Assembly: GCA_020184695.1 (NCBI GenBank) | Contig: JAANOX010000253.1 | Location: 395,114-459,113 of the forward strand | Length of the DNA stretch: 64,000 nt | Source of the DNA: Histomonas meleagridis 2922-C6/04-290x | Lineage: Eukaryota > Protista > Parabasalia | Direction: 5' to 3' | The notes under the pieces: generated by a model | Told to the model about the DNA's origin: nothing | Databases searched by the model: none | The model's input: the letters and a program-made list of their open reading frames with translations, nothing else | Shown: positions 26,396 to 56,989 of the stretch, piece by piece | Layout of the letters: every line of letters starts with the position of its first letter | How positions within the stretch are numbered: position 1 is the stretch's first letter | Translations under genes and position numbers: made by a program

Positions 26396-26921
26396 CTCAA
26401 TAAATCAATAATATTTTAAGTATACTAATCTTTAATTTTAGAAATAATTATGTTTCTATTAATAACATATAAAACTCAACTTGCGATTTTGTACCATCGC
26501 ATATAGCGATCATCCTACGATCTTGATATTATGAATATATAATATATATACAATGTTGCATCTATGATTAATGAATAACTAAGAATAATATCATGATTAG
26601 CACAAAATAAATTTATTCTTTCACTCAAAAAAGTGCCAAATTCGACTTTTGCATAGTTTACATCAAACATTAGCTACAACGATAAGTGCCGATAGAAGCT
26701 TTAATGATTGATGGTAAATATAATTCAATTTTTACTATTTAAAAAAAAAAAAAAAAAAACAGACAGACACACTTCACAATTCCATTGTGATGCTTTGCAT
26801 ATGGTTTCAAATCCCCTTTATGTATATTGTCGTAAAAAGTAAATTATATATCATTGTAAAATTCATTATTTTTATAAATAAAAAAATATACAAATAATAT
26901 ATTAATATTTTTATAAAAATA

Positions 26922-29230: not shown

Positions 29231-29247
29231 TTTAATTAGTATAAAAT

Positions 29248-30463
29248 ATGATTGAATCTAATAGAATTGAAACTATACTTAAATCTTTAATGAATAAAAA
29301 TAGTGTAGTATATTATAAACATAGTAAAACTTCTGATACCTTATCTAATGGTATTTGTTCATTAACAATTAATAGTGTAGATAAATTATTTATAATATTT
29401 ACTTATGGAAGATGTCATTTAATAATTAATCCTCTAGATTCCAGTATCAAAGGTCTTGTTTTAATAAACGATTATTTAGTAAGTGATATTATTACAGGAT
29501 CTAATATAATGAATAATGCTTATCTAAATCAAATGTTTAGTAATATTGATAAAGTATTGGACTTATATAAGGAATTTATTAAAATCGATCAGGAAAGTAA
29601 TAGTGTTAAAACATCTGATATGTTAGTAAATAATATTAATGGTTATTCTACAGAGAATTTTGCTTCGAAGAATCATAATCATGATGAAAGATATTCTTTA
29701 ATATCACATACACATAACATTATTGATAACGATTTAAATGTTAACGGTAATCTAACTGCTATAAAAATAAATGGATATTATATTTATGATAGTTCTGGCG
29801 GAGGATCTAATACAGCAATAAATATCCTATGTATAGCTACTATTAAAACAGATGGTGTTATGGAAGTAGGAGAATATATTGATTTTCATTATATATATGA
29901 TTATAATAAAGATAATAATTGGAGAATGAGAGCTTTAACTGATACTATAAGTTTTCAAGCAAAAGGAGGTAAAACAATTAGTTTTAGCAATGCTGGTAAT
30001 ATAAATTGTAATTCTATTAATAACATATCTACTGATAATATTTTTTTAAACGATCATAACCATGATGATAGATATTCATTATTAAATTATACATACTGAT
30101 TATTTAACAAGTGCAAATTTAGAAAATATCGATAATAAGTTGACAGGAATTATTTCTAATAAAGATTATATCGGAACTAACGAGGAGGAGGATATTTTTG
30201 AAATATATACTGTTATAAATCAAGATTTAAAAGTAAATGGTAATATAGAAGTTGATACTATCAAGAATTTATCTATTAATAATTTTTCATTAATAAATCA
30301 TACACATGATCAATATTTAACAAATGATATTTTAATCAATATAAATTAGGCTTTAACAGAAATATCATATAATGAATTTAATAAATGGACTAAGATTGAG
30401 AAAGATTTAATAGTAGGTAATGACATCAAATGTAGAATTATGTCAGCAAGTCGTAATATCAAT
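29248..30463 (+). pseudogene. Fibre-like protein with HxH (HNHDDRY/HTH) repeats, truncated
   Basis: Homologous to 39510-42512. The reading frame runs directly into the (AC)n putative terminus at 30464. Confidence 0.65.
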
Positions 30464-30570
30464 ACACACACAGGGGAGATTTCACTTCGTTTCACTCCCC
30501 CACTTCGCTTCGCTCGGTGTGTGTTATATCGCCTTCGGCTCAAGCTTCACTCACTACGTGCGCTCAGTAA
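30464..30570 (+). other. Putative PLV terminus: 5'-(AC)4-AG plus GC-rich hairpin cluster
   Basis: ACACACACAGGGGAG...CTCCCC stem, with GCTTCGC (30507-30513), GTTTCAC and GCCTTCGGC (complements of GAA-triloop mini-hairpins). Mirrored at 52886-52992. Confidence 0.6.
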
Positions 30571-32500: not shown

Positions 32501-33605
32501 AATACTTTTAAATAAAAATAAAATATATAACATTATTGAATATTTTTCATTCATTTCTGACATACCACTTATTCTTATTGTGGTATACATTTGATATAAT
32601 AAATATATTTCATGTAAGTTAGCGTTTACCAATATTAATTTAAAATGAGATAAATCATTAGTATTCATTTCTACTGCAAAATCTGCATTATTAACTATTA
32701 TAGAATAATTAGCACTGAAACTATTATTTACTCTTAATATTATTTTCGATATATTAAGATTATTATTTAAATTTCTATAACTACTTTTTCCTAAGTTTGA
32801 TACTATATATAATATTGGTGTTGAAAGATAGTTTCCTACTGATTTTGCTGAAATTTCGTATTTATTATTTTCATTATTATAACTAGCAGGTAATGGTAGT
32901 ATTTGATCATATAAACCTGATAATTGAAATATATTATAACTATAACTATTAATAATAAATTGATTATTAATTTTCTAGTAGGTGGACTAGGGAGATTTAT
33001 ATCAATTCTATTATAATGTTCATAATCATATGCTAATATCGTATAATCAATGCCCTCGTGTAGTATCTTATATAAAGTTGAAATATACTATCTTTGATTT
33101 ACATAAAATTCATAAATTTTATTTTTATTTTTAATAAATATAATGCCAAAGAGATTAAATACTAAAACAGTTAAAAATCTATATAATAAATATGGATATA
33201 CTCTACCAGATAATTTTGAACATATAAATACTACTATCAAATATAAAGTATTTGATGAAAGAAATAATAAGTATACTAAATTATCGTATAATCAGCTACA
33301 ATATAAAATTAAGAAAGGTTTATCAGAATATGATTCATTTGATGATTATTATAATATGGCTTTTATCAGATAAAGAATTTGCAGAGAAACCTGTTGGAAA
33401 AAATAAATCTATTAATGATATAACTAAAGATTTAATAAATAAATTATTATTACAAAAAGATTTTACTTATAATAATATTAATAAATAACATAACATTATA
33501 TTATATGCTTTAATGTATGCTATTAAATCAGTTGGTGCTAAGATCAATAAAGATATTAGAATGACAATAATTGGTGATGATAATAATATATCTTACTATC
33601 ATGCC

Positions 33606-33863
33606 TCATGAAATTTTGTTCATGCATTTTAAGATTCTTGAATTTTTGTCAAATTCTTTTGGCAAATCCTCTCCTTCAGCAACAGTAATCTCGCAATTGC
33701 AGGCATTTACTACAAGTATAATTCTTCCTTTTGCAGTATTTGGTATTGGCTCGTAAATCTTAACATTTATTCCATAATAGACATCAAATAATAATTCTAA
33801 ATTAAACCTTTTGGCTTTTTTAAACATTTCAGGACGTACAGCAATGACATATTTATTACACAA
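33606..33863 (-). CDS. Conserved small PLV protein
   Basis: NKYVIAV...KKAK...PIPNTAKGRIILVVN...ITVAEGE aligns with family A KYVVIV...KKCK...PPLHNVKKGRYILMYN...ITVCSGE (27680-27883, 55524-55844). Confidence 0.6.
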   Translation of the reverse strand: MCNKYVIAVRPEMFKKAKRFNLELLFDVYYGINVKIYEPIPNTAKGRIILVVNACNCEITVAEGEDLPKEFDKNSRILKCMNKIS

Positions 33864-34019
33864 TCATTAATGTAAAAATAAATATTTTCTATAAACGGTG
33901 ATTGTTTTGTGGTTATCTTCTTATTTGATTACAGATGTTTGATAATATCGAAAATATTTAAAGGAATCATAGATACTTCCATTAAATAACAGTAAAAAAG
34001 ATTTTTTATCTCTTGAAAA

Positions 34020-34586
34020 ATGTCAGTTCCTAAAAGTAGTGTTTTATTTTGCAATCGAGGATTCCTTGCAAGAGTCGGAACAAATTTAAATTCTCCGAAA
34101 CTAGATCAAAGCCAAAACGTTAATGTTGTGGTCGATTGGTATTAAAGGATTGCGGTTTATCCTGATGTTAATTCGACAGAATCGGATGTTAAAGAACGCT
34201 CGATTTAAACAGCAAATGAAACTTTAACTAATTATGAACAAATAATACACCACCAAGACTTATCAATTCAAGCGTTGGTGTTATGTTTAGATATGGTAGA
34301 AAATAATCCTTTGATTGTAAATAAATATGTCATAGCAGAGGAAGACGAATTAATCGAACTTATTCAATTATTGTGTGATACTCAAAAAGTGGAGTTAATG
34401 ATAGCAGACACAGACGCTGGATGTTGTAAAAGCTCAACGTTAGATTATGTATCAAAAATTTATGTTAAAAAAGACGGCAATACTTATAATTTGAAATATA
34501 ATTACTCTAATGTTTGTGAGTATTTGAGTGATAGAAAAATATACACAAAATTTGTTAAGAGTTCAGGAAAAATAAGTTATAAATAA
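34020..34586 (+). pseudogene. Conserved PLV hypothetical gene (homolog of 55869-56465)
   Basis: MSVPKSSVLFCNRGFLARVGTNLNSP...NNPLIVNKYVIAEEDELIELIQLLCD...GCCKS. Confidence 0.65.
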
Positions 34587-34725
34587 AATAATCGAATCCA
34601 TAAATTCTTTTGAATTTTGCATTACATATCGCGAGTTGTTCATTATTATTTATGTCTCTGCACCAAACTAAAGCATAGCCGCGCTGATTGTGACATACGT
34701 TCAATTTTCTCAATTCAATTTCATT

Positions 34726-35154
34726 TCAAAAGTATAACGAATTTGTTTTATCGTCATAGTAATAATCCTCTAACTGATGACCGGCATATTCTTTTATTTC
34801 AATTGAATTTTCATTAATTTCATCATAAAATTCATAATCTTTTCCAAGGTGTGATGATTTATTCTTTGAATTTTCTGACGAGGAAACCCACCGAAGATTA
34901 TTAATGCGAAAATCTGTTCTGTCATGATTAATGTGATCAATTTCTGTTTTATTATCAGGATTTGGTATAAATTGTAATGCTATTATTCTATGTTTGAGAT
35001 ATTTTCTGTCGTTCAAGCGATATTGAACGTATCCGCCTCGTGTTTCATCGACATGTTCGCTAATGATTCTTTTATCTGATTTTCTACTTATTTGAAAAGG
35101 AAATTTTGTAAAAATTATGTAATCGCAATCGCAAACACAAATAATCCAACTCAT
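34726..35154 (-). CDS. HNH homing-endonuclease-like protein
   Basis: GGYVQYRLN...LKHRIIALQFIPNPDNKTEIDHINHDRTDFRINNLRWVSSSENSKN is an HNH_3 consensus. The 5' end is probably frameshifted. Confidence 0.9.
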   Translation of the reverse strand: MSWIICVCDCDYIIFTKFPFQISRKSDKRIISEHVDETRGGYVQYRLNDRKYLKHRIIALQFIPNPDNKTEIDHINHDRTDFRINNLRWVSSSENSKNKSSHLGKDYEFYDEINENSIEIKEYAGHQLEDYYYDDKTNSLYF

Positions 35155-35239
35155 ACTGTTTTATTAAAATTGAAATAAATTCCCTTAAAATTAAGCTTAA
35201 TTTTTATTATGTCATATCAACCGAATATAAATTTCATTT

Positions 35240-37539
35240 TTAACTCATACTCATTAATTTTTTTATCGGATTACTTGAATTTTCACAGTATTCTTTAATT
35301 TTTGGCGTGCAATAATAATAATAACTTTCTTCTCCATGCTAACCGATCCAATTTTCAGGAGATTTAAAGTATACCTCGGTGAAAACATGTTCAATCTTGA
35401 ATTTGCCGAGTTCATGAACACTTGGTCATGACCAATAAATCCTTTATCTTTCGATACCATAAAATCTTACTCTGATATTAACGCAGAATCAATGTTTGAA
35501 TAATAAACTAACGAGATTCCTTATTAAATTCATTTTTTCATTAAATTTATCTAAAACACTTTTCGCAAATTGAGGATAAGTGAAATTTTCGACGTAAGGA
35601 TTCAGGGTATCGACAAATCCTGAAATTCCGTCTGAATTGTACGTGTATTTTAATACATAAGGCGCGAATTCATCAATATACTTATTAACGTTATTTACAA
35701 ATTTATGTTTTATAACTTTTGGCTATTGTATTGAAAAACCAAAACATGAATTCATCATGAATTTCAGTGTTATTAACAATTTATCTTTTCCCGATAATTT
35801 GGCTTTCATTCTTGCTTTATATAATTTTTCTATTGACTTATTAATCTTGGTGTTTTTTTCTTTGAAGTTTCCGTCGGCGTCATGTAATCCAGCAGGAATT
35901 GATTGAACACTTGATATATACGCTCCGCATTTGTCGATATAATAAAGTTTTTGTTTCGAATAAATATTTCTCCAAATAATTTTCGGTGTTTGAATTTCAG
36001 ATATTATTTCATCTGTGCAATCTCTCCGGAAAATGAATATACATTATCAATACATCCGAATTCAAACATTATCTTTTGCATCAGCTCAGAGAATTTATAA
36101 TATCTTGATACATTAATTCTTTTACTTAATTTCAACGAATCAATAACTTCGTGAAGTTCTTTTAATGTCTCCGGGATAATTTATTTATCCGGACAGTATC
36201 CGAAGAAACTTTTTGTTTAATTAACTTATTTATAATATAATGATGTAGGTTTTTTATCAGCAACAAATATTTTTCTATAAAGATAATATGTTTTGACGTT
36301 TGATTTCATATAACTCCATGAAAGCTTATTTATCGTTTGTTGATTAATTGGAATTAATAAATTATTTTCGATCATTATATATATTGAACTATTTATACCC
36401 CAACATTTTTTAAAGAAAGAATATATTTTGTTGTCGAATTTAAATAACATCATTTATCTGTTATGATTTCTAAATCTCAAATCAGCATTTATATTTTCAT
36501 TATCCTTTATATTACATTCCGATACATTATTTTTAAAATTCGGCATATGATGGTCGTCTATAATTATTAGTTTTATTTCTCTGTTGTAATTCTCACCAAA
36601 TATCTTGACACGCGTATGTTTTGTTTCGAAATTAAATATTTTGACTTCACTTTTGATTTTTAATATATCAGAAATTCTTTTTAACTCACTTCTTGGAACC
36701 GTTCGAGTTCGAATAAAACTCTTCAACATTTTTAATTTATCTTATTTCGATGCTTCCGATACAATAAATGCTCGAATTAAACATGATTCATTTATATTAG
36801 AATCATTAACGTCTGTAAATATTCCAAATTTTCTTAAATTAATATCTGACGTGTTGATGTAAGGAAAGAATCCTGAATTTATTCTCTTACCTATATTGAA
36901 ATCTTTAAAATCAGAACAAATGGTTTCAATGAATAACATATATTCCAACACAACATCGTTTGTATCACCAATCACTCTATCATTATTCAAGCCAGCACGT
37001 ATAAATTCAACTGTATTTTTATTTGCATGTGAATATTGTTCTCTTCCATCTTCATCAATTAAAGTTAATTTTATATTTTTATATATTTTATATGCTGCTG
37101 TTTCAATCGCGTACATCAAAGCAGAAAGAAATGTATCAATACTTCCTTTATTTTCAAATGTAAAATCTTTTTGTTTCATTAAATTTTTAATTATTTTATT
37201 TGTTACATTATATACTTCACGTTTAAAATCTTCCGATTCATTTTTGAAAAATTCATGTTTTTTTTTACTGAAACGTACAAATGAATGTTTATTTTTGAAC
37301 TCATTATCACTTAATGGAAGATTCATTAAATTATTAATTTCCTCGGTGATGTATTCTGCTCTTCCTTTTGATATTATATATTTTAACTGATTACCACTTA
37401 ATCTTACATAATTTCGATATTGTTCGTCATAAACTTCAAGTGGTGTTGAAGTATTTATATAAACGAAATTTTTCGGTAAAGTGTATCCGTATTTTTCAAA
37501 TAAACTTCTAACTGTTCTTTTGCTCGATCTTTTTGGCAT
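35240..37539 (-). pseudogene. Divergent family-B DNA polymerase (Polinton/protein-primed type), fragmented
   Basis: Motif A LYYIDKCGAY (~35916-35950), motif B R.KAK...LKFMMNSCFG (~35730-35820) and motif C VYYSNIDS (~35487-35510). The N-terminus is homologous to family A MPKRLNTKTV. Confidence 0.75.
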
Positions 37540-37593
37540 TTTATCGAAAATATAAAAATATATTTTTTTGATACTACTAAGTTTAATTTTTTT

Positions 37594-38132
37594 TTAAATT
37601 AATTTTTTATACTGCTCTTTAGTAAGAAATATATGATTATTTTGTAAAGCACAAACTATTCCTTGATTTATTGCATCAGCTATATCATCTTGCTTTTCAT
37701 ATTTTTCTAAATTATCTGGCATTTGAGATGAACTCCAAGAACTAAAATATTTTTCCTCAACATTATTTAAAAAGTTTCTTGCAATATTAACGCTCAATTT
37801 CTTATGAGCTTTATTTTTGGTGTTATATTCTAAACCTAAATATAAATTTTTTTTTTTTTGGTTCAAATAAATGAACATTAGCTCTGAAGGCTAGTGAAAT
37901 AGTAATGATACTATACATTAATTCCATGGCAATGATATTTCTGGGAATTGTTTTTCAATTACTACTGTATCAATATTATTATTTCTTATAATATTGCCAA
38001 TATATTGATTAATCTGCATTTCTCGATAGCATTTTTGGCTTTTGATATATCGATAACGTCAAAAGTAATAGCCGGAAAAGTAATGGCGTAAGCAAGATTT
38101 TTAATTCCAATATCGATTGACAATATCGGCAT
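37594..38132 (-). pseudogene. Poxvirus A22 / RuvC-like Holliday junction resolvase, frameshifted
   Basis: N-terminal MPILSIDIGIKNLAYA (ATG 38130-38132) and C-terminal KQDDIADAINQG match the A22/Ydc2 acidic catalytic motifs (SIDxGxKNLA; KxDDxAD). Confidence 0.8.
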
Positions 38133-38164
38133 TGTTATAAGTATAAGACGAATAAATTTTTCAT

Positions 38165-39141
38165 TTCATTTTTGTGACCTTCCAATTTTTTGTTTCCTCA
38201 AGCATTCCTTTTATCTCATCTTTCCGAATCATGCACTTCTAGACAGATTTCCACATTTTAACGATTGACATAACAGGAATTCTTTCTTTGTTTGGGAAAT
38301 ATTCCTCAACGAATAAATTGTTATTATCTGATTCTTCAATTTCTTTTTAAATTCTTTTAATTTCATCTCGCAATCTTTCTTCCTCTTCTTTTCTTATATC
38401 TTCTATATCTCCAATGGAATATTCATATTCTTTCATCATTTTTTCGCACTTTGCACACTTCAGTGAGTGATATTTAGCATTAAATTTATGAACCTCAGCC
38501 GAAAAATTCATTGAAGCTTCAATGACTTTATCAACATTATACATTTCACTATTATACTCATTTAATTCTTTTCCGCGTAAATCTTTGTTTTTAATCCTCC
38601 AGCAATACTCAGCTAATAATCTATAAAAATCATCAATTATCTTTAATTCAGACCTTTTACGTAATTTTAAGGCGTCAGAATTATATGTTAATGCTTTACT
38701 TTCAAGTATTATTGAGTGATTGCAAGAAAAGGTTTGTGTTTTTCTGTTAATTTTTCTAATTAATGCTTTTATTTCTGTCGAATCGCTTTTTTCAATTTCA
38801 ATTTTTGGGAAACTTTTAACAGAAACATCAATCGTTAATTCTGGTATATTTACTGCTGTAATATATTTTGCGAATTCTAAAATTTGCTCTAAATATTGTT
38901 GATTTCTTTCTAATTTAACTTCAACGGGAAGCTGATGATTCAAAATTTTATTTTTATATTCTTTAATAGTATTTGTATAATTATTAACTGAATCATCAAT
39001 TTTATTTTCAACTTTAATATTATTTAATTTAATCAAACATAAAGCAGACGTCTGATTTTCTGAGACGAAAGCCGAACAAGAATTTTTCATTAACATTTTT
39101 ATTATGAATATTAAATAAATTAATTTTTTAAAAATTGACAT
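38165..39141 (-). CDS. PLV coiled-coil hypothetical protein with frameshifted C-terminal domain
   Basis: 264-aa ORF (38347-39141) continuing as FVEEYFPNKERIPVMSIVKMWK in another frame. Confidence 0.55.
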
Positions 39142-39509
39142 TATTTTTTTAAAGTTAATTTTTATTTTTTTTATTTTTTTATTTTATATAAAATGGAAAG
39201 ATTTTTTGATATAAAGAAAATTGACGAAAACATTGATAAATAAATAGAAACAGCAAAAATTCATTTAAATGAATTATTCATTCAGTTACTGATTACTTTC
39301 ATTGTAGTAAATGATTCAATAGAAACATCACCGTTAGATATTTGTAAACAATATTTAAAATTTATCGAACCGAAGAATAAAAGAAGTAAAAAGAATAAAA
39401 ATATTATCGCAGAACAACATATAAAAATAAATGAGGTGTTAGTTTATGTGAATGAATCATTAAAAAGTATTCGTGATATTATTGCCGAAACGGCATAAAA
39501 TGCCTTGAG

Positions 39510-42500
39510 GCTCTAAGAGCTGAATACAGCTAACAGAGAATCAGATATAATTGCAGTGACTTTTCCAATAATCATATTATTTATTTTTGTCTATAATGGC
39601 GTATCGTCATATAATACAGTCCCATCATATAAAATAGTATCACCAATATTATATTTTGATGAATCATTAACTTTAAAATAATAATCTCCGTGAGTTGCAA
39701 AATCAATTGTATCTTGATTAATGGATATATCTTGTTTAATTATATCTCCTATTTGAAAAATTTCTCCAGCTGTATGTATTTCTGTACAAATTCCAATAAA
39801 TTCTTTATAAGAACCATTGCCTTTTACAGACGGAATACAATTAGTAGAATCAGTAACTGAAGTATAATTATATGAATCATTTAATTTATATACGTTACCT
39901 GTAATAAATACAGGACAACCGATATTGAAATCATTTAATGTTAATGTATCGTCTATTGGCGCGTTATGCACAATAGTTTTATTTATCTGTCCTCCACCAT
40001 TTGCTGATATAATTGCTTTTCTGTATATATCATCTGACACATGCCAAAATCTTAATTCATTTTGATAAGAAGCTATACGCCAATTATATGTTCCTGGTGC
40101 TTCTGTTGATTGGTCGTGATATACAAAATATAAAAATCTTCCTGTTCTTAATACTGCATTTTGATATAAAACTATATCATTAGGTTCATGAGTATGAGAA
40201 GAGAATGTAAATGTTGATGGTTTATCTGTAATATCATTATAACTATAAGTATGTCCATTTAATGAAAAGATACTTACATTAATATAATTAATAGAATTAC
40301 AATATATGTTACCATCATTTCCATTGAAACTGATAACATCATCATTATTATCAAGTTTACCGAAATACATAACATTGTCGGCAGTTCTTATTCTTCAGCT
40401 ATAATCACTATTATCATTATTATCATGAAGATCTATGTATTGTCCTTTTTCCATAACACTATCACTCTTAATAGTAGCTATACAAGGTAAAGAATTTAAA
40501 TGATTTCCTTCTGAAAAACCATTATTTATATAATAATTGTTAATCTTACCATTAATAGTGATGTCGTTGTTAATTTCGGTATGAGTATGAGAACTTGGCA
40601 TAAAAGTAGTTGGTTTGTTAATAATATCATTATAATCAGGTTTGTTAATACATAAATTATCAACAGTTTTATCTATATAAAATTCTTTTATTTCTGGGAC
40701 TGATAAATCTGTTCTTTGAGAAATACTTATGAAAAATTTATTTTCTGCATGTGATAAAGCTGTTTGTTGCCACTCATTATTAGATATATTTATTGTTTGG
40801 AAATTCAAATAATTGTAAGTATGAACATGACTTGTTAAAGAATATCTGCCATCATGATTATGTGTTGTTAATGAGTATTCATCATGAGTATGATTTAACG
40901 GAGAGTATTTGTCGTCATGATTATGTGTTGTTAATAAGAAACTACTAACAGAAATATTATTAATTGATGAACAAGCAAAATTACCAGATTTGTTGAATGA
41001 AAATGAAGGATTTACATATTCATTATCAATAAAAAATCTGACTAAATTAGGTCCACTCGAATGTAAACTAATTCTGAAATGAAAATCTGTTCCTTCTGCA
41101 TTATTTGTATGATGAAAATTCAAACAATTTGGTATTTCAAATACACCTCCGCTAATTAATGGGATTGATGGTGTTACTAATTAAGTTCATTTGCGATTAC
41201 CAATAGGATATCCGTTTAAAGTATTTACTTGAATATTACGATTAACTACCAAATCATTATGAATTGTTGTATGAGTATGATTTAACAAGAAGTATTTATC
41301 ATCATGACTATGTGTTGTTAGTGAGTATTCATCATGATTATGATTTAATGGATAGTATTTATCGTCATGATTATGTGTCGTTAGTGAAATATCATTTGTA
41401 TTAATACAGTTAATTGTTGTACATTCAACATTACCATTAATTATTAAGTCTTGATTAATTGATGTGTAAATTTCATGAATATCTGTTTCCTCTTCCTTGA
41501 CAGTTACTGTTTCTACATAACTTTATTAAAGCTTATACCAGTACTGGTATTTAATTATTTATATCACCGTCTTCACCTGGCGGTCCCATTAAAATTTCTT
41601 GAATATCTTCATCATCAATAATCATTTGTTTTGTGAAGTAGTATTCTATCGTTATTTCACCGTTGACGTTAATTATACCATAACTATATACTGTATTATC
41701 AAGCATAATTAAATTTCCGTTTGGAAAACTAATTAATAAAGAATTTTGGTTTTCTTCACCGTCAACTGTTGATATACTAACTCCGTTCACAAAAGATATA
41801 GCGTCTCCGATGAATAAAATTCTGTCTTTAACCAAAGCTATTTCTTCTGTATACCGTTAATAGTTGAACATTTAACATTACCATTAACTTTTAAGTCTTG
41901 ATTATTTGATGTGTAAATTTATTAAATATCTTCTTCTTCTTTATCAACAGTTACTGTTCCAACAAAATCTTCATTATAATTTATACCTGTGATCTTTTTA
42001 TTAATATTTATTAAATTATCATCCGTTAAATATTCAGAATGTGCATGATTTAATGGAGAGTATTTATCATCATGATTGTGATTTTTTAATGCAAAATCTT
42101 CTGTTGAATAACCGTTAATGGTATCAATAATTAAATTTGTAATTGTAACATTATTACTATCTTTATTGATATTTACGAATTGTTTATATAAATCTAAATC
42201 ATTATTTATACTATCAAACATTTCAATTATGTATGCATTTTTTATTATATTTTCTCCAGTAAGTATATCATCAACTCTAATATTATTATTGATATACTTT
42301 AAATTTTTTATACTATTATCTAACGGTGATATTACAACATGATTTCTTCCGTAAGTGAAAACAAATGATTTGTCATAACTATTTATCTGTAATGTACATA
42401 TACCATTTGATAATGTATCAGATGTTTTTGAATGATTACTGTATACAACACTGTTTTTATTCATTAATGCTCTAACTATATTTTCAATTTTTTCAAACTG

Positions 42501-42512
42501 TGAATTTGACAT
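39510..42512 (-). pseudogene. Long modular fibre/tail-like protein with HxH repeats and a short collagen-like segment
   Basis: Repeated HNHDD(K/R)YS, HTH, HSH and HAH motifs. Duplicated module at ~41400-41520 and ~41860-41960. MGPPGEDGD segment. C-terminal IGCPVFITG...DFATHGDYYFKV domain. Confidence 0.7.
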
Positions 42513-42813
42513 TTTTAATAAGATAAAAATGTATAAAACTGAAAATCAATTTACAACAACTGCGTCTCAGTTACCGATTGAAGAAAATTATACAAATCTT
42601 GATTTAGATAAGTATGAAGTATTAAATCCTCAAAATGGTTATACTTTCCGTTATCCTCAACGTTGGTTAGAGTCTCCATCACAGAATAAAGCTATTGGCA
42701 TAAGAAGATTAAATATAACTCCGACCGCTCACGTTTTTTTTTTTTTACAGTTTGAAGTAACTAAACCAGAAAGTGTCAGTGGTTCTTCATTTAATCCACG
42801 TATCATTAAAATT

Positions 42814-43963
42814 TGATTCTATGATAATATTTAATAATTTTTGGACAACCGTAAAACCCCATTCAAAATGTTGGACTAAAATAAAACATTTTTTTTAATG
42901 ATTTTTAATTAAATTAAGCTGGATATTATTGTTCCAGGATCTTTTCGTTCCATTTTGGTGTATTCCATAAATATCGTGGATCGCCATATTCCATGGCGTT
43001 GAATTACATTATCTTGGATACCTAGTTTTGCGGTAGCATTCGCTCCGCCTTTCCTTAGGGAATGGGAAGAATATTTATTGTGTTCTTTAATTCCAATATT
43101 CATCATTATATTTTTGATTTTTCTCGAGAATGTTTCATTAGAAAATTTAAAAACCTTTTCATTTTGGTCGAATTGTTTAAGCGAAAAAAAAAGTTGAACT
43201 CAATTAAACGGATTATGCTGTTGCTTGATAGGGTCACCCTTTATTATGAAACACATAGTACCACATGACAATGGATCATTTTTTGATCGTTTAATATTTA
43301 AAGAAATTCCATCTTCTTCAATTTATATGTCATTAAACTCAAGATTTGATAATTCAGAAAATCTTAATAAACCAAAATATGAAAGAGAAATTGCAGTGAA
43401 GAATTCTACATCTGAATATAAATTCTGATTCATAATTTTAGAAATTTTAATCATATCTTATTTTGTAATTGGTTTTTTTTTTGCTTTTTTATGGGAAACT
43501 CCAAGTTTTCTTTGAATTGATTTGATGTAATTTTGAAATTCATATGATTTTGTCTCATCATTTTGTTTTTGTGAATTGTAGTAATAAGAAAAACTAGAAA
43601 TAAATAATTTAAATGTGCTATATTGTATCGGTGGTTGACAAACATCTAATTTAAAGTGTAAAAATCATCTAATGTTTGCTTCTGTTAGAAATGGTGGAGG
43701 AGCTCCTTGTATTTCTTTCATTGTTCTTTCATAACTATTAAAATATGATTTATATGTGCTAACCGATGAAGGATTAATGGCGAATGCTTCCGACTCTTTT
43801 GTTGCCTCAACGAAGTCTTCAAAGTTCATTTTGTGACCGACCTCGGTCACATCATTTTGAATGGGGTTTTACGGTTGTCCAAAAATTATTAAATATTGTC
43901 ATAGAATAAAAGTTTTTGGCAACAACAGTCGCTTCAAGACGGTTGACCAAAAACTTCTAAGTT
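42814..43963 (-). mobile_element. Tyrosine-recombinase (Crypton/TEC-like) DNA element with ~55-bp inverted repeats
   Basis: IR at 42816-42870 versus 43853-43907 (one mismatch). No target-site duplication beyond TT. Boundaries defined by the restored host frame. Confidence 0.8.
42909..43850 (-). pseudogene. Tyrosine recombinase (phage-integrase fold, DIRS/Crypton-like)
   Basis: YFGLLRFSE (R), IKRSKND (K), SSHSLRKGGA (H-x-x-R), HGIWRS (H/W) and FMEYT (Y). Several in-frame stops. Confidence 0.9.
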
Positions 43964-44559
43964 ATGGCACAAAATACTTAATTTGAAATTTCAACGTCAG
44001 TTTGCAATAGTTTTAATAATGCATTCACCAGTTATAGATTATCTTACGAATACGAAAACTCAGGCAATTTATATTTTGCTTGTACTTATGTTGGTTCGGA
44101 TGAAACTCAGAATCTTGTCGCAAAATTTGCGATTGTTGATTCAGGAACTACTACATCTAATTTAGAAAGTTTTTTTATATTCTTAAATCAAGATGTAACG
44201 TCAGAAAATATAAGTTATTTGATGACTCAAACCGATGTAATGACTTTTAATAATATATGGAACCGTGAGTATTTAGAATTTCATGCTCAATTTAGTGATT
44301 CAAAACAAAGATTCATTGGCATCAAAAATGATTTTTATGATAAACCGACAGTATTATATAACGAGCCTAATAACGGCTCAACATTTAACATCAGATTTAC
44401 AACAAACGGCAAAAATAATATTTATTCAAAATACTCTAGGTTTATTATTCAATTAGTATTTTTTTATGATTACAGAAAAACTGTCGTACTTTAAGAGTAA
44501 AGCGACCTTTTGATATCATTAGGGGTTGTCTTTTTATCTTTTTCTTCATTAAATACAAC

Positions 44560-45280
44560 ATATATTTTAATACAACATTACAATAGAATTGACGTAAACT
44601 TACCGTCACTCACACGTCAAGCAAAAATGATTGTAACATCGCTAGCGACTAAATGTTCTATTGTTGTTATTGAGATAGATGATTTTATACAGATTAACGG
44701 CAAAAAATATCATTTCAATAATGATTATACAGACTCAAATTCGCAAACGTTTATATTACTATTGAATTCGCTTATTCAAGAATCAGGCGTTACGTCTGAA
44801 GTCGACGAAGCAGGAAGAATCGTATTTACTTTATCAAATGCTTTTACGATAAATAACGTTTCATATAATATAATTCAAATTTCTGGGTTGTACTCACAAA
44901 TTCTTACTCTTTCGTCAACATTCGACGGTACAGATACATTTGAAATATTCGCTGAATCAGTCGGAAACACTTTATCAACTCCTGTTCTTTATCTTTTGTC
45001 AAACGTTGGATAAAGTTCGTATAGAAACTTAAACAAAACCATTAACATTTCAAAAATTGTTTTTAGAATTAACAATAGCTTTTCGGCGAATTTTCCGATT
45101 ATTGTATCAAACGCTGATTTCGAAATTGACATTAATTCTAATGATTTATCACATATTCAATTAACACTCGTCGACGCAAACCTTCATGAAGAACATTTAC
45201 TGAATCCAATGTATATAACAATTTCTGTTCAAGGCATACAGGACGAAGATTTATTTGTCGGTGAGATTCAAAATCAAAAA
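44560..45280 (+). pseudogene. Putative minor capsid (penton-like) protein, one premature stop
   Basis: YNRIDVNLP...STPVLYLLSNVG*...RINNSFSANFPII...NDLSHIQLTLVDANLH. Clear ortholog at 50285-50926. The penton call is inferred from context and beta-rich pattern. Confidence 0.55.
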
Positions 45281-45301
45281 TAAATTTTTTAATTTATTTT
45301 T

Positions 45302-46198
45302 TCATTTTATTTTTTGATTTATAATAACTCTTCGTGCTTTAATGTTGTGAATGGAAAAAATTCCGTGTGGATCTTTGCTGTATTCTTTCCATAGCGCTTT
45401 AGCATCAAATACACTCGCTGCTGCTAGTGATCCCTTCAACAAATCAATAAAGTCTTCATGTTTGATACCGTTAAACAGTACAATATCCGACGAAGTTCTT
45501 TTTATATCTTTTGGTATACTCTTTGTTGTTTGCACACATATGATAACGTTAATATTAAAGTGTCTGAGTTTTTTCGATAATCTTGACATCTCCGTTCTCT
45601 TACTCCGTAGTAATGGATGATTAGCAAAATCATCTAATATCAACATACATTTATGCGAATAAGTTTTCCATTGATACTTTGCTAACTTCTCTGAAATGTA
45701 TTTTAATTTCTTCTTTGAATTACTCAAATTATATTTCATAAATAATCTTTCTACTACTTCATCCGTTTTCTTAAAATCAGAATTGATATATTTAATGATA
45801 GAATTATATTTTAATATTCGCCTGATATATTTATTGATCCAATTTAACTAATCAGTATCTTTTATGGCAACAAGTTTCGTTTTCTTTATTGCTTCCTTAT
45901 ATGTATTTACTGTTTCATCAAATTTTGATGATGTACTACAAATAGTTATTAGTTCAAAAAATGGTTCGTTAAATAGTACTTCTTGTTTCGCGCCGAGTTC
46001 AACGTAAAGATATGATTTACCTGAACCCATCGGCGCTATAAATGTTGTTATTCCGTTTTGAGCAAATAAAAACTTTTCATGTATTGGTTTTATTTTCGCA
46101 TTCTCTAAAATTTCTTTGCTTTGCTTTTCTAATTTATCAAACAATTCTTCTATCTCATTAAATTTTTTATCTACACTTTCTGATTTATTTTTTCGCAT
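45302..46198 (-). pseudogene. A32/FtsK-like genome packaging ATPase, single in-frame TAG
   Basis: Walker A APMGSGKS, Walker B LILDDF and the A32 signature LRHFNINVIICVQ. The two ORFs are in frame, separated by TAG at 45848-45850. Confidence 0.9.
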
Positions 46199-46238
46199 TA
46201 TTTTTTATTTATAATAAAAAATTTTTTACCGCTAATAA

Positions 46239-46700
46239 ATGGATTCATTTCAAGATTATTTAATATCAGAATATAAAATTGATTACGCCGCCGTTGAGTT
46301 TAAATATAATCACAATACAACAGTTAAGATAGATAAACCAACAAACAAACCTATACTTCATAATAATATTTTTGTTTGCGTTAAATTTTATGATAAGAAT
46401 TTAAAACTTCTTGAATCTGCAAATTTAAAGTTTACCGATAACATTCTCACAAAAACAAATGAAAAGAAACTTGTAAATATAGCTCCTGCATAATTAAATA
46501 ATAGATTTATGAAAGCCAAGAATGATATCGTAAAACGCATCACTGACGAATTAATAGAGAAACGTGAAGAAATTGATAATAGGATTATATCATTAAATGC
46601 TTACGTTGGAAATGAAAATTTAGCGATTTCAAAAGAGTTTGAAGGTTTAAAAATTAGTTTTCCAGGATATACTAATGATAAAAAAACGTTTGATATGTAA
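46239..46700 (+). CDS. Two small conserved PLV ORFs
   Basis: MDSFQDYLISEY...VKFYDKNL aligns with family A MESFEEYIKSEY...VKFYDDKL (51468-51755, 31749-31991). MKAKNDIVK aligns with MNAKNEIIK. Confidence 0.65.
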
Positions 46701-46859
46701 ACTAACTTTTTTATCATTATCTCGCTACCTCAGCAGCTCCAGTAAACTTGCAATTTTCGACTCATATCCTTCAAAAAATGCTTATTTACTCCGATTCGTT
46801 GGAAATTAAAAAACGAGGTCAAAAAATCACCTTTGAATTTTAAAAGATACTTTTTCGAT

Positions 46860-48305
46860 AAAAATAAACATTTTTCATAAAGCATCTTCATCAACTTCGT
46901 CATCAACTATTTGTTCTCATTATTTTTTGTGATATTTTTCAAACCTATCATAAACTTCTGGCAATAAATTATATACTTCTGCTGTTTTTCCATTAATCCA
47001 TTTTTGCATAGCATTTCCCGTGAATTTTTTTATATTTGCGATAAAAGTTCTTGGACTGCAACTATTGATTTTGTTTTTCTTAACAAAATCACAATAGAAA
47101 TTAAATAAATCAGGACTGGTAATATTTTTGATTTTATCATAATTGTCTCTAGCAAAAATTTCATAACTTGACATTGAAGCTTCTTTTATATTTTCTTTTG
47201 CTTCAGTATTCGGTAATACCTATAAATTTGTTTTTGACACATCCATTAACATAAAAATTGTATATAAATTTTCATTAAATTTGAGCGTGAATGTTTCCGC
47301 TAACTTTGCAAAATATTTGAATTCTTGTAAGTGTTTATCACTAGTTTTAGTCACAACATATCTTCTGTCATTACTTTATATTCTTATTATAACATCGTAA
47401 TTTGAAACAATAATAAAATTAGCAACATTTTCTGTTTCTCTCATTGGTTCATTCTTTTGATTTATATTTATTGTTTTATTTGTTATAATAGATTTTAACG
47501 CATCGGAATTTAAAAATTTGTTAGTATCAATACTTTGTGATTCATTTAAAACCAATAATTTTATGTTTTTTAATGTTGCACTGAATTTGCCGACTACTGA
47601 TTCTATATTCGTAACATTTTCATTTGCATATCTTGCCATTAATTTGCATATTACATCTGTAAAGAACGTATTTTTACCTGTTCCTTGGTTTCCTAATATA
47701 ACTAAAGCAACTCCTGTTTTGAAATTTGGTTTTTGAAGAATTGATGCAATCCAAATTAAAATATATCTGTATACTTTTTCATTACCGTTTGCTATAACTT
47801 CACGGACATGATCTAAAAATGGTTGTATAATTTCTGTTTTTACTTCATCCGATTTTTTATAATCATAACCTCTAAAGTAACTGAAAATTTGAGGATCATT
47901 TGAATAAAATTTTTATGCCTTCACTGTAAATATTTTTGTATTTTTCAAGTATAAATCCCAGGCGGAAATATTTTTTGTTTTATTTCCTTCTATTCTTCTT
48001 CCAATAGTTATTTTCTTTTATTTCTGTTTAGCAATATTTTCCGAAGTGTAAGAAACTTTAACGCAATCATTCAATGCATCATAATCCTTAAACATGAAGA
48101 CTTCCGGTGTTGAATGACTTACTAAAAAACATTTCTTTAAATCATTTATTGCTTCATCTCCGTTTGAATCATACGGAGCTTTATCTCTAATATCCATTAA
48201 ACAGAATTTGTCGTTTATATCAATACTCACCTCTGACATTCTTTTAGTGAGAATAAAAAAACAAAAAACTACTTTAAAACTAAGCTTAATTTCCTTACTT
48301 GCCAT
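46860..48305 (-). pseudogene. SF3 (D5-like) helicase, fragmented
   Basis: Walker A ILGNQGTGKNTF, Walker B LLVLNE and motif C ENVANFIIVSN. Confidence 0.85.
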
Positions 48306-48540
48306 TACCTAACTTACCAAGGTTTTATTCCTCTTTATACTTTATGTATTTTTTTCTTGTTTCTCATTATATACTGTTATTTTTTCTTATTCTTTTCATT
48401 TCTTGAAATCTCTGAGTTTTACAGGTAAGTTAGGTTAGGAGTAAGTCTTAAATTTATTTTATTTTCCGCACATGTTACCGTAAACTTGACCGTTAATTAT
48501 TAATTTCAGTCATCCTCTCGTCGTTAATGCTTTCTTTTAT

Positions 48541-48600
48541 GTAGCGCGTATTGCTGCGAGCGTATCACGCGAAGCAGCAATAGTCGCTGTGTGTGTGTGT
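48541..48600 (-). other. Putative family B terminus: 5'-(AC)6-AG plus hairpin
   Basis: The minus strand reads ACACACACACACAGCGAC. Stem TATTGCTGC/GCAGCAATA with inner GCGT/ACGC. GCGAAGC at 48569-48575. Confidence 0.65.
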
Positions 48601-50097
48601 ACATATAAGCTCCATAAAGATCTATATAATAATACTTACCTATTAAATGTATTTGTTGCCATATATTTTTAGGAAATATCCATTTATTACGTATTTTATT
48701 AGCTATATCACCTGATAATTCGTATACACCATTAAAACAACCATACTCATACATAATCTTTAACACTAAATCACTATATCTATAATATTTTACAACATTA
48801 ATATTTAATTTTAATTTATTATTAATAATATTTTGTAATTCATTTAATCTATATCCTAATTCTTTATCAGTTATATCATATCCAAATAACTTCTTGCTAT
48901 GTTTCATTATTTTTAACAAATTTGAGTATAAACTCCTTATCAGGTATTTTTATTAATTTATAATTATTATAAGGTTTAATTACTGCTTTGTAGCTCCAAC
49001 ATAATTTATTATAAATGTTGATATCGATAGGTTTTAATAAATTATATTGTTTCATAACATCAATTAAAGAATATATATATATATTCATCCGTATATTCGA
49101 TGGGTTTAGATTTATTATAATTTGTAATACTATCAATTGATATATTAACATTTCCATTCAACATATGATGATTATATATAATTATTAATTTTATACTTTT
49201 ATCATATTGTTTTCCATAATCTCTGTGAGTAAAACCTTTGTTAGCCATATATCTAATATTAATATGAATTTTTAATAAATCAGATATATCTTTTAATTGT
49301 TATAATGGAACTGTTCTAGTATTGATAAATGATCTTAGCATATTAATCTCATTTACTGTAAATAAATTACTAGCAATAAATGATTGAACTAAACAAGATT
49401 CATTAATAATATCAATGTTGATGTTATTGAAAATACCATACTTAGTGAGATCTATATTAGTTATAATAATATAAGGGAAAAATCCTGGATTAACTCTTTA
49501 ACTATTTTTTAAATTTTCGAATTCAAATTTTATAGATATAATATTTTTGAAAGTGTCTAATGCCAATGTATTAGAATCACTAATATTATATTTTTCATTA
49601 ATAATATCATATAAGAAATTAACAGTATTCATATTTCCATGATAGTAAGATATATTATTATCATCACCAATTATTGTCATTCTAATATCTTTATTGATCT
49701 TAGCACCAACTGATTTAATAGCATACATTAAAGCATATAATATAATGTTATGTTATTTATTAATATTATTATAAGTAAAATCTTTTTGTAATAATAATTT
49801 ATTTATTAAATCTTTAGTTATATCATTAATAGATTTATTTTTTCCAACAGGTTTCTCTGCAAATTCTTTATCTGATAAAGCCATATTATAATAATCATCA
49901 AATGAATCATATTCTGATAAACCTTTCTTAATTTTATATTGTAGCTGATTATACGATAATTTAGTATACTTATTATTTCTTTCATCAAATACTTTATATT
50001 TGATAGTAGTATTTATATGTTCAAAATTATCTGGTAGAGTATATCCATATTTATTATATAGATTTTTAACTGTTTTAGTATTTAATCTCTTTGGCAT
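48601..50097 (-). pseudogene. Family A PolB, truncated just after motif A
   Basis: MPKRLNTKTV...FFPY...GCFNGVYELSG...YYYIDLYGAYM, then abuts the family B (AC)n terminus. Confidence 0.75.
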
Positions 50098-50284
50098 TAT
50101 ATTTATTAAAAATAAAAAAAAATAAAATTTATGAATTTTATTTAAAAAAAATCAAAGATAGTATATTTCAACATTATATAAAATACTAAACGATGTAATT
50201 GATTATACTATATTATCATATGATTATGAACATTATAATAGAATTGATATAAATCTCCCTAGTCCACCTACTAGAAAATCTAAA

Positions 50285-50926
50285 ATGATAATAACATCAT
50301 TAACTTCTAAATGTCCTATAGTTGTTATTGAAAAAGATGATTATATACAAATTAATAATAAGAAATATACTTTTAATAAGCAATATACTAATATTAATAG
50401 TGAATCATTTATAATATTACTAAATGAACTAATAATTGAAACAGGAATAACTGCTGAAATAGATGAATGTGAGAGAATAATATTTACCAGTAATAATCAA
50501 TTTATTATTAATAGTTATAGTTATAATATATTTCAATTATCAGGTTTATATGATCAAATACTACCATTACCTGCTAGTTATAATAATGAAAATAATAAAT
50601 ACGAAATTTCAGCAAAATCAGTAGGAAACTATCTTTCAACACCAATATTATATATAGTATCAAACTTAGGAAAAAGTAGTTATAGAAATTTAAATAATAA
50701 TCTTAATATATCGAAAATAATATTAAGAGTAAATAATAGTTTCAGTGCTAATTATTCTATAATAGTTAATAATGCAGATTTTGCAGTAGAAATGAATACT
50801 AATGATTTATCTCATTTTAAATTAATATTGGTAAACGCTAACTTACATGAAATATATTTATTATATCCAATGTATATCACTATAAGTATAAGTGGTATGT
50901 CAGAAATGAATGAAAATATTCAATAA
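50285..50926 (+). CDS. Putative minor capsid (penton-like) protein, family A
   Basis: 213-aa ORF homologous to 44560-45280. The left copy has a ~220-bp deletion. Confidence 0.55.
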   Translation: MIITSLTSKCPIVVIEKDDYIQINNKKYTFNKQYTNINSESFIILLNELIIETGITAEIDECERIIFTSNNQFIINSYSYNIFQLSGLYDQILPLPASYNNENNKYEISAKSVGNYLSTPILYIVSNLGKSSYRNLNNNLNISKIILRVNNSFSANYSIIVNNADFAVEMNTNDLSHFKLILVNANLHEIYLLYPMYITISISGMSEMNENIQ

Positions 50927-53900
50927 TGTTATATATTTTATTTTTATTTAAAAGTATTTATGATAAATAAAGATAGTAAATTTAAAGAGATTGATGATAA
51001 CTCTAATAATATAAGTAAAATTATATAAGGATGTATTAAATAATGCTTTAATTAGACCTATTCATGAGGAATACCTTTTATCTCGATATGGTATATGTGC
51101 TTTTATAGCTCCTATTAAAAATTATCTGCATATCAGGAAGTTATATTTAATGAACCATTTTTTGAATTAATTGTTATATGTGTTCAAACTGTAAAATCTA
51201 TACCTAAAGATCTAAAAAGAACATTAAGTGATATAATATTATTTCCAGGCATATCAAAAGAATGTTTTTATGAGTTAATGAAAAATAGTCCTCCTAGTTA
51301 TTTTAATGTTGATAAGATGTGGAATGAATATCATAAAATCAAAGATCAACACACCAGATTCAATAATATATATATGAAAGCTAGAAGAATTACCTTAACT
51401 TTACCAAAAAGTATTGAGAAAAAATAAAATGCTTTTTTATTATATATAATAATATGTTTTTTTATATATGAATATGGAATCATTTGAAGAGTATATTAAA
51501 TCTGAATATAACGATAAATATAAAGTTGTTAATATTAAATATTCTCATAATATATTAACGAAAATAGGTAAAAAGACTAGAACAGCTATCAAACAATGTG
51601 TTATCTTTGTTAATGTTAAGTTTTACGATGATAAACTTAATATATTAAATGCTTTAAATCTTAAATTTATTAATAATATGCTTGCTAAAATATCAGAAAA
51701 AAAGCTTACTAATATATCATCTTCTGAAGTTAATAATAAGTTATATGAATGCTAAGAATGAAATAATCAAATGAATCAAAAATAAACTAACAGAAAAATG
51801 TGATAAGATCAAATCTAAAATTAATGATCTAAATGAATGTTTTTTTGTATTTCAGATGATATATCAAATATTGAAAGTCCCAATAAAAATTCAAATCAAA
51901 AAGTAATTGATAAAGATAAGCATGTAAAGTTTGATATGTAAAAGCATTATATAGTTATAATTTATTAAAACTATTATTTTAGTTCATATGAAGAATTCAA
52001 GCCAATAAATTGGCGTTCAAAAGTGCAACTGTTCAGAATTATTTTTGAACGATAAATTTGTTGAAAATATAGTTATTTTTAATGATGTTTAAATTACGAT
52101 AATCTTTGTATAATTTATCTATAAAAATGAATAATGTATAATTACGATAAATTTGATTAAAACTCTTGTTTGTCCACAACGTCCTGGATGTCCACGGTCG
52201 TCCTATGACATTTAACTTCTCCTAAAACTCACCCACAACACGCAATTATGCAACAATTATTATACAATAAATGCTTATTTGCTTATAAAAAATATTTTTA
52301 ATAATACCTATTTATAAAGGACAAAGACGGACAATATTATTATTATTATTCTGTTAAAATATTTATTTCACAAACAATTTATTTCAACGATTATATTTCT
52401 CAACAATTTATATTTCAACAATATATATTATTGTTAATTATATGTCCTAGATGAGATATAAAAACTATAATATAATTATTACGCAAAAGAGCATATATAC
52501 AATCATTATGTTGAAATATATTTTTCAACAATATTATGTCCGACTATGTCCTTTATAAATAGGTATTATTAAAATAATTTACTACGCAACAATATAATAT
52601 ATACAACATTATAACGTTAGGAATATATCATTGTTGCGAACTTAAAAATATGAAAAATTACAGACACGATGTTTTTATGTAATTTTATAATTGTTGCGAA
52701 ATTGCGTGTTGCGGGTAAGTTTTATAAGTAGTTAAATGTCCTAGGACAACCGTGGACATCATGGACATGCAGGACATATTATAATTTTCATCAATTTTTA
52801 TAGTATTTCTACAATATTCATTCATTATATATTATTATTATCATTATGTTAGGATATATATTTAAAAAGTTGACTTTTTATATTTTTACTGAGCGCACGT
52901 AGTGAGTGAAGCTTGAGCCGAAGGCGATATAACACACACCGAGCGAAGCGAAGTGGGGGAGTGAAACGAAGTGAAATCTCCCCTGTGTGTGTATTGATAT
53001 TACGACTTGCTGACATAATTCTACATTTGATGTCATTACCTACTATTAAATCTTTCTCAATCTTAGTCCATTTATTAAATTCATTATATGATATTTCTGT
53101 TAAAGCCTAATTTATATTGATTAAAATATCATTTGTTAAATATTGATCATGTGTATGATTTATTAATGAAAAATTATTAATAGATAAATTCTTGATAGTA
53201 TCAACTTCTATATTACCATTTACTTTTAAATCTTGATTTATAACAGTATATATTTCAAAAAAATATCCTCCTCCTCGTTAGTTCCGATATAATCTTTATT
53301 AGAAATAATTCCTGTCAACTTATTATCGATATTTTCTAAATTTGCACTTGTTAAATAATCAGTATGTATAATTTAATAATGAATATCTATCATCATGGTT
53401 ATGATCGTTTAAAAAAATATTATCAGTAGATATGTTATTAATAGAATTACAATTTATATTACCAGCATTGCTAAAACTAATTGTTTTACCTCCTTTTGCT
53501 TGAAAACTTATAGTATCAGTTAAAGCTCTCATTCTCCAAGTATTATCTTTATTATAATCATCTTTATAATGAAAATCAATATATTCTCCTACTTCCATAA
53601 CACCATTTGTTTTAACAGTAGCTATACAAGGTATGTTTATTGCTGTATTAGATCCTCCGCCAGAACTATCATAAATATAATATCCATTTATTTTTATAGC
53701 AGTTAGATTACCGTTAACATTTAAATCGTTATCAATAATGTTATGTGTATGTGATATTAAAGAATATATTTCATCATGATTATGATTCTTTCGAAGCAAA
53801 AATTCTCTGTAGAATAACCATTAATATTATTTACTAACATATCAGATGTTTTAACACTATTACTTTCCTGATCGATTTTAATAAATTCCTTATATAAGTC

Positions 53901-56900: not shown

Positions 56901-56989
56901 GCAAGTTGAGTTTTATATGTTATTAATAGAAACATAATTATTTCTAAAATTAAAGATTAGTATACTTAAAATATTATTGATTTATTGAG

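What the first reader, a model, noticed from the sequence alone, without database searches (positions are those of the whole stretch)
48541..48610. Family B terminus has the same architecture and truncates family A PolB
The minus strand begins ACACACACACACAG, then a 9-bp stem with an inner stem, and GCGAAGC again lies on the 3'-terminal strand. Sequence differs from the family A end but the design is the same. The end is joined directly to family A PolB just after motif A. With the 30464 junction, both visible termini land inside genes of other PLVs, which suggests preferential nesting or virus-versus-virus disruption.
Basis: partly seen in the sequence, partly recalled or inferred. Interest (0 to 1): 0.7.

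Follow-up and report, generated by a model that had tools for sequence, protein, structure and literature searches.

The report
Virus end splits neighbour virus's polymerase
A short AC repeat with a hairpin, likely the end of a virus-like element in a gut protist's genome, is joined straight into the catalytic motif of a neighbouring element's DNA polymerase gene; this is likely ordinary nesting in a genome crowded with such elements, and two cases cannot show targeted attack.

Summary
The minus strand reads (AC)6AG from 48600 into a 4+9+4-bp hairpin (z -3.6/-4.1). It is joined flush to the neighbouring element's PolB gene at motif A. Short-read contigs bridge the join with no differences at about single-copy depth; other PolB copies continue past that base with the expected motif; the hairpin occurs in other copies. 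The PolB family is a protein-primed type, about 250 aa shorter than canonical ones and likely lacking the exonuclease, so the AC repeat likely serves slide-back priming.

The two ends share (AC)nA and GC richness but fold differently, and GCGAAGC is buried in B's stem. Two junctions are expected at P 0.07-0.29 from PLV density alone. The 30464 end may join its own family, and a possible third end faces non-viral DNA. No second end, TIR or target duplication could be tested.

AC ends and nested Trichomonas Mavericks are published. What remains interesting: B shows an HNH gene beside PolB, an A22-like resolvase and no retroviral-type integrase in its 15 visible kb.

The parts
48589..48600 (-). 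(AC)6 terminal repeat of element B; first base 48600; likely slide-back template for protein priming
   Evidence: junction base fixed by PolB copies that align from 48601
48543..48588 (.). Sub-terminal hairpin, stems of 4, 9 and 4 bp; other copies differ by small indels in the outer-stem arm
   Evidence: table 4
48569..48575 (+). GCGAAGC heptamer, overlapping the inner and 9-bp stems; not predicted to form a mini-hairpin in the full fold
48601..50097 (-). Element A pPolB pseudogene, cut at motif A by the B end; stops and frameshifts upstream
33604..48600 (-). Visible part of element B (15 kb, 27% GC); other end not visible, cut at the arm of an inverted duplication
46900..48300 (-). D5-type primase/SF3-helicase gene of B (broken), first gene behind the end
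   Evidence: PF19263 E 7.6e-18; PHROG primase E 6e-19
45851..46198 (-). 5' part of the A32-type packaging ATPase gene of B (frameshifted; continues to lower coordinates)
   Evidence: PF04665 E 1.1e-07 for the 3' part
42808..43915 (-). 1.1-kb unit with 66-bp inverted ends and a broken tyrosine-recombinase gene, inside a structural-looking gene of B
   Evidence: PF00589 E 0.0029, below cut-off
37597..38132 (-). RuvC/poxvirus-A22-like resolvase gene of B (broken), three acidic motifs present
   Evidence: PF04848 E 0.0037, below cut-off; motifs
35246..37539 (-). pPolB of B, short form (about 750 aa family), frameshifted
34640..35160 (-). Free-standing HNH endonuclease gene directly behind B's pPolB
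   Evidence: PF13392 E 5.2e-14; PHROG HNH E 2e-20
30464..30567 (+). End of element A: (AC)4AG plus GC-rich mini-hairpins; mirrored at 52889-52992
29245..30463 (+). Fibre-like gene that stops at the A end (1.2 kb, against about 2.9 kb for B's homologue)
   Evidence: no intact close homologue found
26741..26790 (+). Possible third element end: poly(A), an AC/AG-rich run and a 7-bp stem, facing non-viral DNA (weak)

Best explanation
The AC repeat and hairpin at 48543-48600 are joined flush to motif A of element A's PolB gene, and they are likely the left end of a multi-copy Maverick/PLV-type element of a likely parabasalid host that landed there by untargeted integration into PLV-dense DNA. Shown: the join, the cut at motif A, other copies of the hairpin, and that the PolB family is related to protein-primed PolBs and about 250 aa shorter. 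Inferred: a terminal protein primes on the AC repeat and slides back; the separate D5/SF3 helicase would assist strand displacement, as proposed for mavirus; the hairpin would fold on the displaced strand's 3' end and protect it or mark the origin. Inferred: the full end was inserted by an integrase (encoded in the lost part of B or supplied in trans; about 0.5) rather than by end-joining (0.3) or the tyrosine recombinase (0.2). A later rearrangement at 33603/33604 likely removed B's other end and the rest of A's PolB.
For: Join bridged with 0 differences in 2 of 4 runs' listed pieces, while other PolB copies continue at 48601. The bin just inside the hairpin (48511-48557) is the deepest of 30 in X1, X2 and X3 (180,517, 221,793 and 417 against unique pieces of about 505-700 and 4-5), but not in X4; hairpin variants reach depth 128 and 104 in X3/X4 against about 5-6 for unique pieces (summed contig depth, not a copy number). 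PolB: Foldseek top hits are family-B polymerases in PDB (E 2e-06) and mavirus, bidnavirus, tectivirus and adintovirus pPolBs in BFVD (best E 1e-09); 10 of 13 chosen long profile hits carry PF03175; P0002 aligns to one of them at 218-415 and 560-707 against 237-430 and 827-987. An (AC)3A end motif is published for Mavericks (PMC8097293). B's genes (DUF3839, primase, A32, HNH, tail-repeat) match the TvMav repertoire, and TvMavs nest in each other (PMC12289875). Two hits in PLV DNA are expected by density.
Against: No second end, TIR partner or target duplication is visible, so 'terminus' rests on one junction, the motif and depth. No retroviral-type integrase fits in B's 15 kb (largest unassigned gap 452 bp; the assignments are mine). 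None of the 10 related loci shows an AC run (for L001-L009; only 1400 of 2751 bases of L010 were read); all are partial contigs. The runs come from one study and probably the source isolate, so they check the assembly, not other isolates. In X1 and X2 the depth at 48584 is only 1.3-2 times single copy. A major capsid protein was not confirmed. Slide-back priming is recalled from phi29/adenovirus/Polinton work; the original Polinton paper was not held.
Confidence: 0.72

Rival explanations
1. Targeted disruption: B's HNH endonuclease nicks rival PolB genes at the conserved motif A, as phage HNH homing endonucleases do in polymerase genes (recalled), and B's end is captured in the break.
For: The break lies exactly at the end of motif A. 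An HNH_3 gene sits directly behind B's own PolB. No rve integrase is seen in B. Interviral competition has been suggested for PLV HNH genes (PMC12220804 passage).
Against: One event. One search lists no second foreign flank at this site (117 loose-end rows were not shown). The other junction is in a fibre gene. A 13-mer shared by the 30464 flank and the PolB continuation has offset cut sites, and similar local matches (scores 42 and 30) occur elsewhere in B. HNH genes occur in 5-24% of TvMavs without such a report.
Confidence: 0.1
2. The join is a rearrangement scar (break repair or template switch between two resident copies during the event that made the inverted duplication), not an integration; it happened to break at the B end.
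For: The locus is heavily rearranged: arms 19444-33603 and 49638-63857, internal deletions in A's ATPase, a second cut of A's PolB at 33603. Nine bases of the PolB flank are an 8-of-9 complement of bases just inside the hairpin (fold).
Against: The join keeps a full AC run and has no filler; a random break would rarely fall on the first base of the end. The flank bases are PolB-coded.
Confidence: 0.12
3. The hairpin is a small mobile GC-rich palindrome or internal origin, not a genome end.
For: Related gut loci carry many variable GC-rich mini-hairpin insertions (33 indels of 9 nt or more, 28 in multiples of 3).
Against: In the window's viral DNA, GC islands occur only at the two junctions (and mirror) and in the recombinase gene. 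The PolB does not resume behind the hairpin. The 9-bp stem is unlike the 3-6-bp double stems.
Confidence: 0.06

Closest known systems
Trichomonas vaginalis Mavericks (TvMav1-3; PMC12289875, passages and supplement file 1 part 1)
   Same: [quoted passage not shown]
   Different: TvMavs carry a c-integrase in 82-86% of copies and a PF03175-type PolB; here no such integrase is visible in 15 kb, the PolB has no Pfam polymerase hit and is shorter, and an A22-like resolvase follows DUF3839.
Vertebrate Mavericks with (AC)3A ends (swamp eel; PMC8097293 passages)
   Same: End made of an AC dinucleotide repeat followed by A.
   Different: Those have both TIRs, 6-bp target duplications and eight core genes including protease and integrase; not testable or not seen here.
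Mavirus-like virophage replication module (PMC11161782 passages)
   Same: Short pPolB lacking most of the exonuclease plus a separate SF3 helicase; mavirus pPolB is the top BFVD match.
   Different: No virophage-type capsid, protease or rve integrase was found; the match is weak (10% identity, TM 0.23), so the loss may be independent.
Oxyrrhis marina PLVs (PMC12721341 passages)
   Same: PLV with a Holliday-junction resolvase, no rve integrase, tyrosine recombinase present.
   Different: Their pPolB is fused to an SF1 helicase; here the recombinase sits in a small inverted-repeat-flanked unit that may be a separate insert.
GCGAAGC mini-hairpins at phage and plasmid single-strand origins (PMC13037366 passages)
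   Same: The heptamer is present at both ends on the 3'-terminal strand; A's end also has a CCGAAGG-type loop.
   Different: In B it competes with a longer stem and is not predicted to form.

Membership tests
Maverick/Polinton | Protein-primed family B polymerase | tested here: met
   Fold matches and profile link to PF03175 proteins; short variant, priming mode inferred
Maverick/Polinton | Short-repeat end motif | tested here: met
   (AC)6A at 48588-48600; compare
Maverick/Polinton | Terminal inverted repeats at both ends | tested here: inconclusive
   No partner in the window; other end lost; no genome held
Maverick/Polinton | 5-6-bp target-site duplication | not testable with these tools
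   Needs the second end
Maverick/Polinton | Retroviral-type (rve) integrase | tested here: inconclusive
   None among the 35 ORFs scanned and no gap over 452 bp in B, but B is incomplete
Maverick/Polinton | Cysteine maturation protease | tested here: inconclusive
   No Pfam hit among the ORFs scanned; B incomplete
Polinton-like virus | A32-type packaging ATPase | tested here: met
   PF04665 above cut-off
Polinton-like virus | [quoted passage not shown] | tested here: inconclusive
   Candidate 54530-55481 has no Pfam or PHROG hit; the model of the 250-aa structural gene had pLDDT 43 and only middling Z; a homologue's Atlas neighbours are unnamed viral clusters
Homing/marker-exclusion endonuclease system | Repeated cleavage or insertion at one site in a rival polymerase gene | tested here: inconclusive
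   One event; shared motif rejected; loose ends only partly shown
Hairpin-ended (pox-type) linear genome | Covalently closed end with the genome on both arms of the palindrome | tested here: inconclusive
   Resolvase gene present, but the palindrome is about 46 bp and lies inside an open AC end

The most novel reading that the evidence does not exclude
B belongs to an undescribed gut-protist PLV lineage that has no retroviral-type integrase, replicates with an exonuclease-less pPolB plus D5 helicase and resolvase, and enters the genome at breaks that its own HNH enzyme makes in rival elements' polymerase motif A: endogenous viruses that integrate by killing each other.
Probability: 0.07. Interest if true: 0.8.

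Novelty: new member of a known kind. Interest (0 to 1): 0.32.

Why it matters
As it stands, it gives an end motif for a parabasalid PLV lineage that Pfam does not recognise by its polymerase and that has hundreds of relatives in metagenomes (473 proteins for the 250-aa gene; 136 PolB clusters at E<=1e-30). Metamonad PLVs are still unclassified (bioRxiv 10.64898/2026.06.19.733378, passages), so the motif allows copies to be delimited and a flank census to be done. If targeted cutting at motif A were shown, it would be a first mechanism for competition between endogenous DNA viruses; present evidence does not show it.

Tried and rejected
No whole genome is held, so no genome-wide flank census. 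IMG/VR scans with B's ATPase, the PolB alignment and a relative's ATPase found 0 relatives among 9, 25 and 11 pattern hits. The metagenome scan gave 9 loci of 72 pattern hits and the GTDB scan 1 of 39; all are partial, none showed an AC-run end in what was read. No Rfam match in the window. No second copy of B's end in the window. A shared 13-mer between the 30464 flank and the PolB continuation was rejected as a target motif: cut sites are offset, the flank scores only 16-23 against 11 motif-A regions (background 95th percentile 22), and better chance matches exist in B. No longer homologue of the cut fibre gene was found (0 of 297 candidates), so its truncation rests on comparison with B's fibre. 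The capsid model was too poor to use. HNH had no PDB sequence match. Four look-ups in earlier findings gave nothing. Literature: (PLV, nested, integration site, preferentially) listed no paper on PLVs preferring other PLVs; searches listed none that, in the passages read, describes this lineage or its ends; bioRxiv supplements and Repbase were not seen and may bear on this. The 30464 and 33603 junctions were not checked with reads, so the inverted duplication (7593 aligned bases, 50 substitutions, 37 indels, 26 in homopolymers) may be partly an assembly product. Assembly artefact was rejected for 48601 only.

Full report
Setting. The window is AT-rich eukaryotic DNA (Myb, E2F-like, clathrin-adaptor and C2 genes). 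A parabasalid host is inferred from the element's gene set, including DUF3839, which matches the Trichomonas Maverick table; the species was not determined and no genome is held. A large inverted duplication has arms at 19444-33603 and 49638-63857. Viral DNA spans about 26760-56440. Reading the minus strand from 56.4 kb: segment A1 (structural genes, fibre), the A end at 52992 (mirror of 30464), segment A2 (small gene, deleted ATPase, 250-aa structural gene, PolB to 48601), then the B end at 48600 and 15 kb of B down to 33604.

Observation. The fold is beyond chance (z -3.56 and -4.09; 0 of 200 shuffles) and is the best of 5924 windows in the viral region. The flank is PolB, 70% identical to P0004 and ending at residue 518 of 733, in motif A. 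Short-read contigs of four runs (two samples, one study) were laid on 47900-49300. Two listed contigs bridge the join with no differences at the depth of unique pieces. Other PolB copies align from 48601 and continue with letters that read as the residues following motif A in homologues, which fixes the break between 48601 and 48600, with no filler. 1134 pieces and 117 loose-end rows were not shown, so other flanks of the B end could not be read.

Is it an end? For: the AC run starts exactly at the break; the bin inside the hairpin is the deepest in 3 of 4 runs; variants of the hairpin occur at about 18-27 times unique depth in X3 and X4 (only 1.3-2 times in X1 and X2). The variants lack one base at 48584 and, in one X2 contig, add two bases after 48587; by hand this keeps and lengthens the outer stem but removes the G after the AC run, so the shared start is (AC)nA rather than (AC)nAG. 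An (AC)3A end is published for Mavericks (PMC8097293, passages). Against: no partner TIR, and depth sums are not copy numbers.

Same design as A? Both ends have an AC run, a 60-105-bp GC island and GCGAAGC on the 3'-terminal strand. Each heptamer arises in about 2% of shuffles (35 and 40 of 2000), the wider mini-hairpin class in 33% and 9%. The folds differ: A's AC run pairs with a GT run, B's does not, and the mini-hairpin is predicted at P 0.22 in A and 0.0 in B (nearest-neighbour models may underrate this motif). GCGAAGC-type hairpins resist exonuclease and occur at single-strand origins (PMC13037366, passages), so a protective role is a reasonable inference for A and weak for B.

Polymerase. 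B's and A's PolBs belong to a family of 709-788 aa with no Pfam polymerase hit in 7 of 7 proteins scanned. A model (pLDDT 73, pTM 0.43) matches family-B polymerases and, among viral models, mavirus and other protein-primed polymerases first. A profile search found 1400 proteins at E<=0.001; of 13 long hits that I picked, 10 carry PF03175. P0002 aligns with one of them in an N-terminal block and in the palm, with about 250 residues fewer in between. I infer a terminal-protein/vOTU/palm protein without exonuclease, paired with a D5-type helicase, the arrangement described for mavirus (PMC11161782, passages). This supports protein priming and a slide-back role for the AC run (mechanism recalled, not from a call).

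Integration. B's visible 15 kb holds D5, ATPase, structural genes, fibre, DUF3839, an A22/RuvC-like resolvase (below Pfam cut-off, three motifs present), PolB and HNH. By my gene assignments 88% is covered and the largest gap is 452 bp, so no rve integrase is visible; B is incomplete. A tyrosine-recombinase gene lies in a 1.1-kb unit with 66-bp inverted ends. Resolvase-bearing, rve-less PLVs are known (PMC12721341, passages).

Preferential nesting. Two independent junctions give P 0.21 at the window's PLV share and 0.07-0.29 at published parabasalid shares (PMC10120064, passages). A1 and A2 share 21-22% GC against B's 27% and complement each other in genes, so 30464 may be a same-family join. 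The fibre gene's truncation there is plausible (1.2 versus about 2.9 kb) but no intact close homologue was found. A candidate third end at 26741-26790, poly(A)-led as described for TvMav3, faces non-viral DNA. A's PolB has upstream stops and frameshifts, one region of which is confirmed by a contig with no differences, so insertion into an already dead copy, which selection tolerates, explains the picture as well. TvMavs are described as concatenated or nested (PMC12289875). The HNH-targeting idea stays open on one coincidence, the cut at motif A; a possible shared target motif was tested and rejected.

Other papers seen as passages: PMC6431247, PMC10748475, PMC12220804, bioRxiv 2024.03.23.586382 and 2026.06.19.733378. 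Double-hairpin elements: search listing only.

Verdict. A real, correctly read junction: a likely PLV/Maverick end inside another element's polymerase gene. The end type and nesting are of known kinds; targeting is not shown. The lineage itself (short pPolB, resolvase, HNH, no visible integrase) deserves a genome-wide look. Interest 0.32.

Noticed in passing
L001-L006, L008 (e.g. L005 505-5349 against L001): Near-identical gut-metagenome relatives (93-96% alike) differ by GC-rich insertions of 9-66 bp, mostly pairs of small hairpins; 28 of 33 are multiples of 3, and such variable stretches show up inside PolB, ATPase and structural proteins. They resemble mobile double-hairpin elements of fungal mitochondria (recalled; listing only) and may be the more novel lead.
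   Followed up: partly
window 35246-37539 and 48601-50097; P0001-P0009: A Pfam-invisible pPolB family about 250 aa shorter than canonical pPolB, likely without exonuclease, with an unusual motif C.
   Followed up: partly
window 37597-38132: Poxvirus-A22/RuvC-like resolvase gene at the position where TvMav1/2 have their integrase (after DUF3839).
   Followed up: partly
window 42808-43915: Small unit with 66-bp inverted ends (94% alike) and a broken tyrosine-recombinase gene, inside a structural-looking gene of B.
   Followed up: partly
window 30625-30769 and 31202-31346: 145-bp inverted repeat (79% alike) just inside the A end; the second arm has no AC/hairpin end.
   Followed up: no
window 19444-33603 and 49638-63857: 14-kb inverted duplication with a 16-kb spacer; most indels between arms lie in homopolymers and break genes in one arm only, so some frameshifts may be sequencing errors. 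Junction at 33603 not checked.
   Followed up: partly
window 3432-4327: Tandem array of 112 copies of an 8-base unit, 99% matches, next to a transposase-like frame at 2286-3297.
   Followed up: no
window 6482-6883, 13191-13581, 20545-20968, 25519-25943 and mirrors: A host repeat of about 400 bp in several copies, 83-98% alike, next to Myb genes.
   Followed up: no
L010: A 2.75-kb contig with this PolB family lies in a bacterial metagenome-assembled genome, likely a binning contaminant.
   Followed up: no
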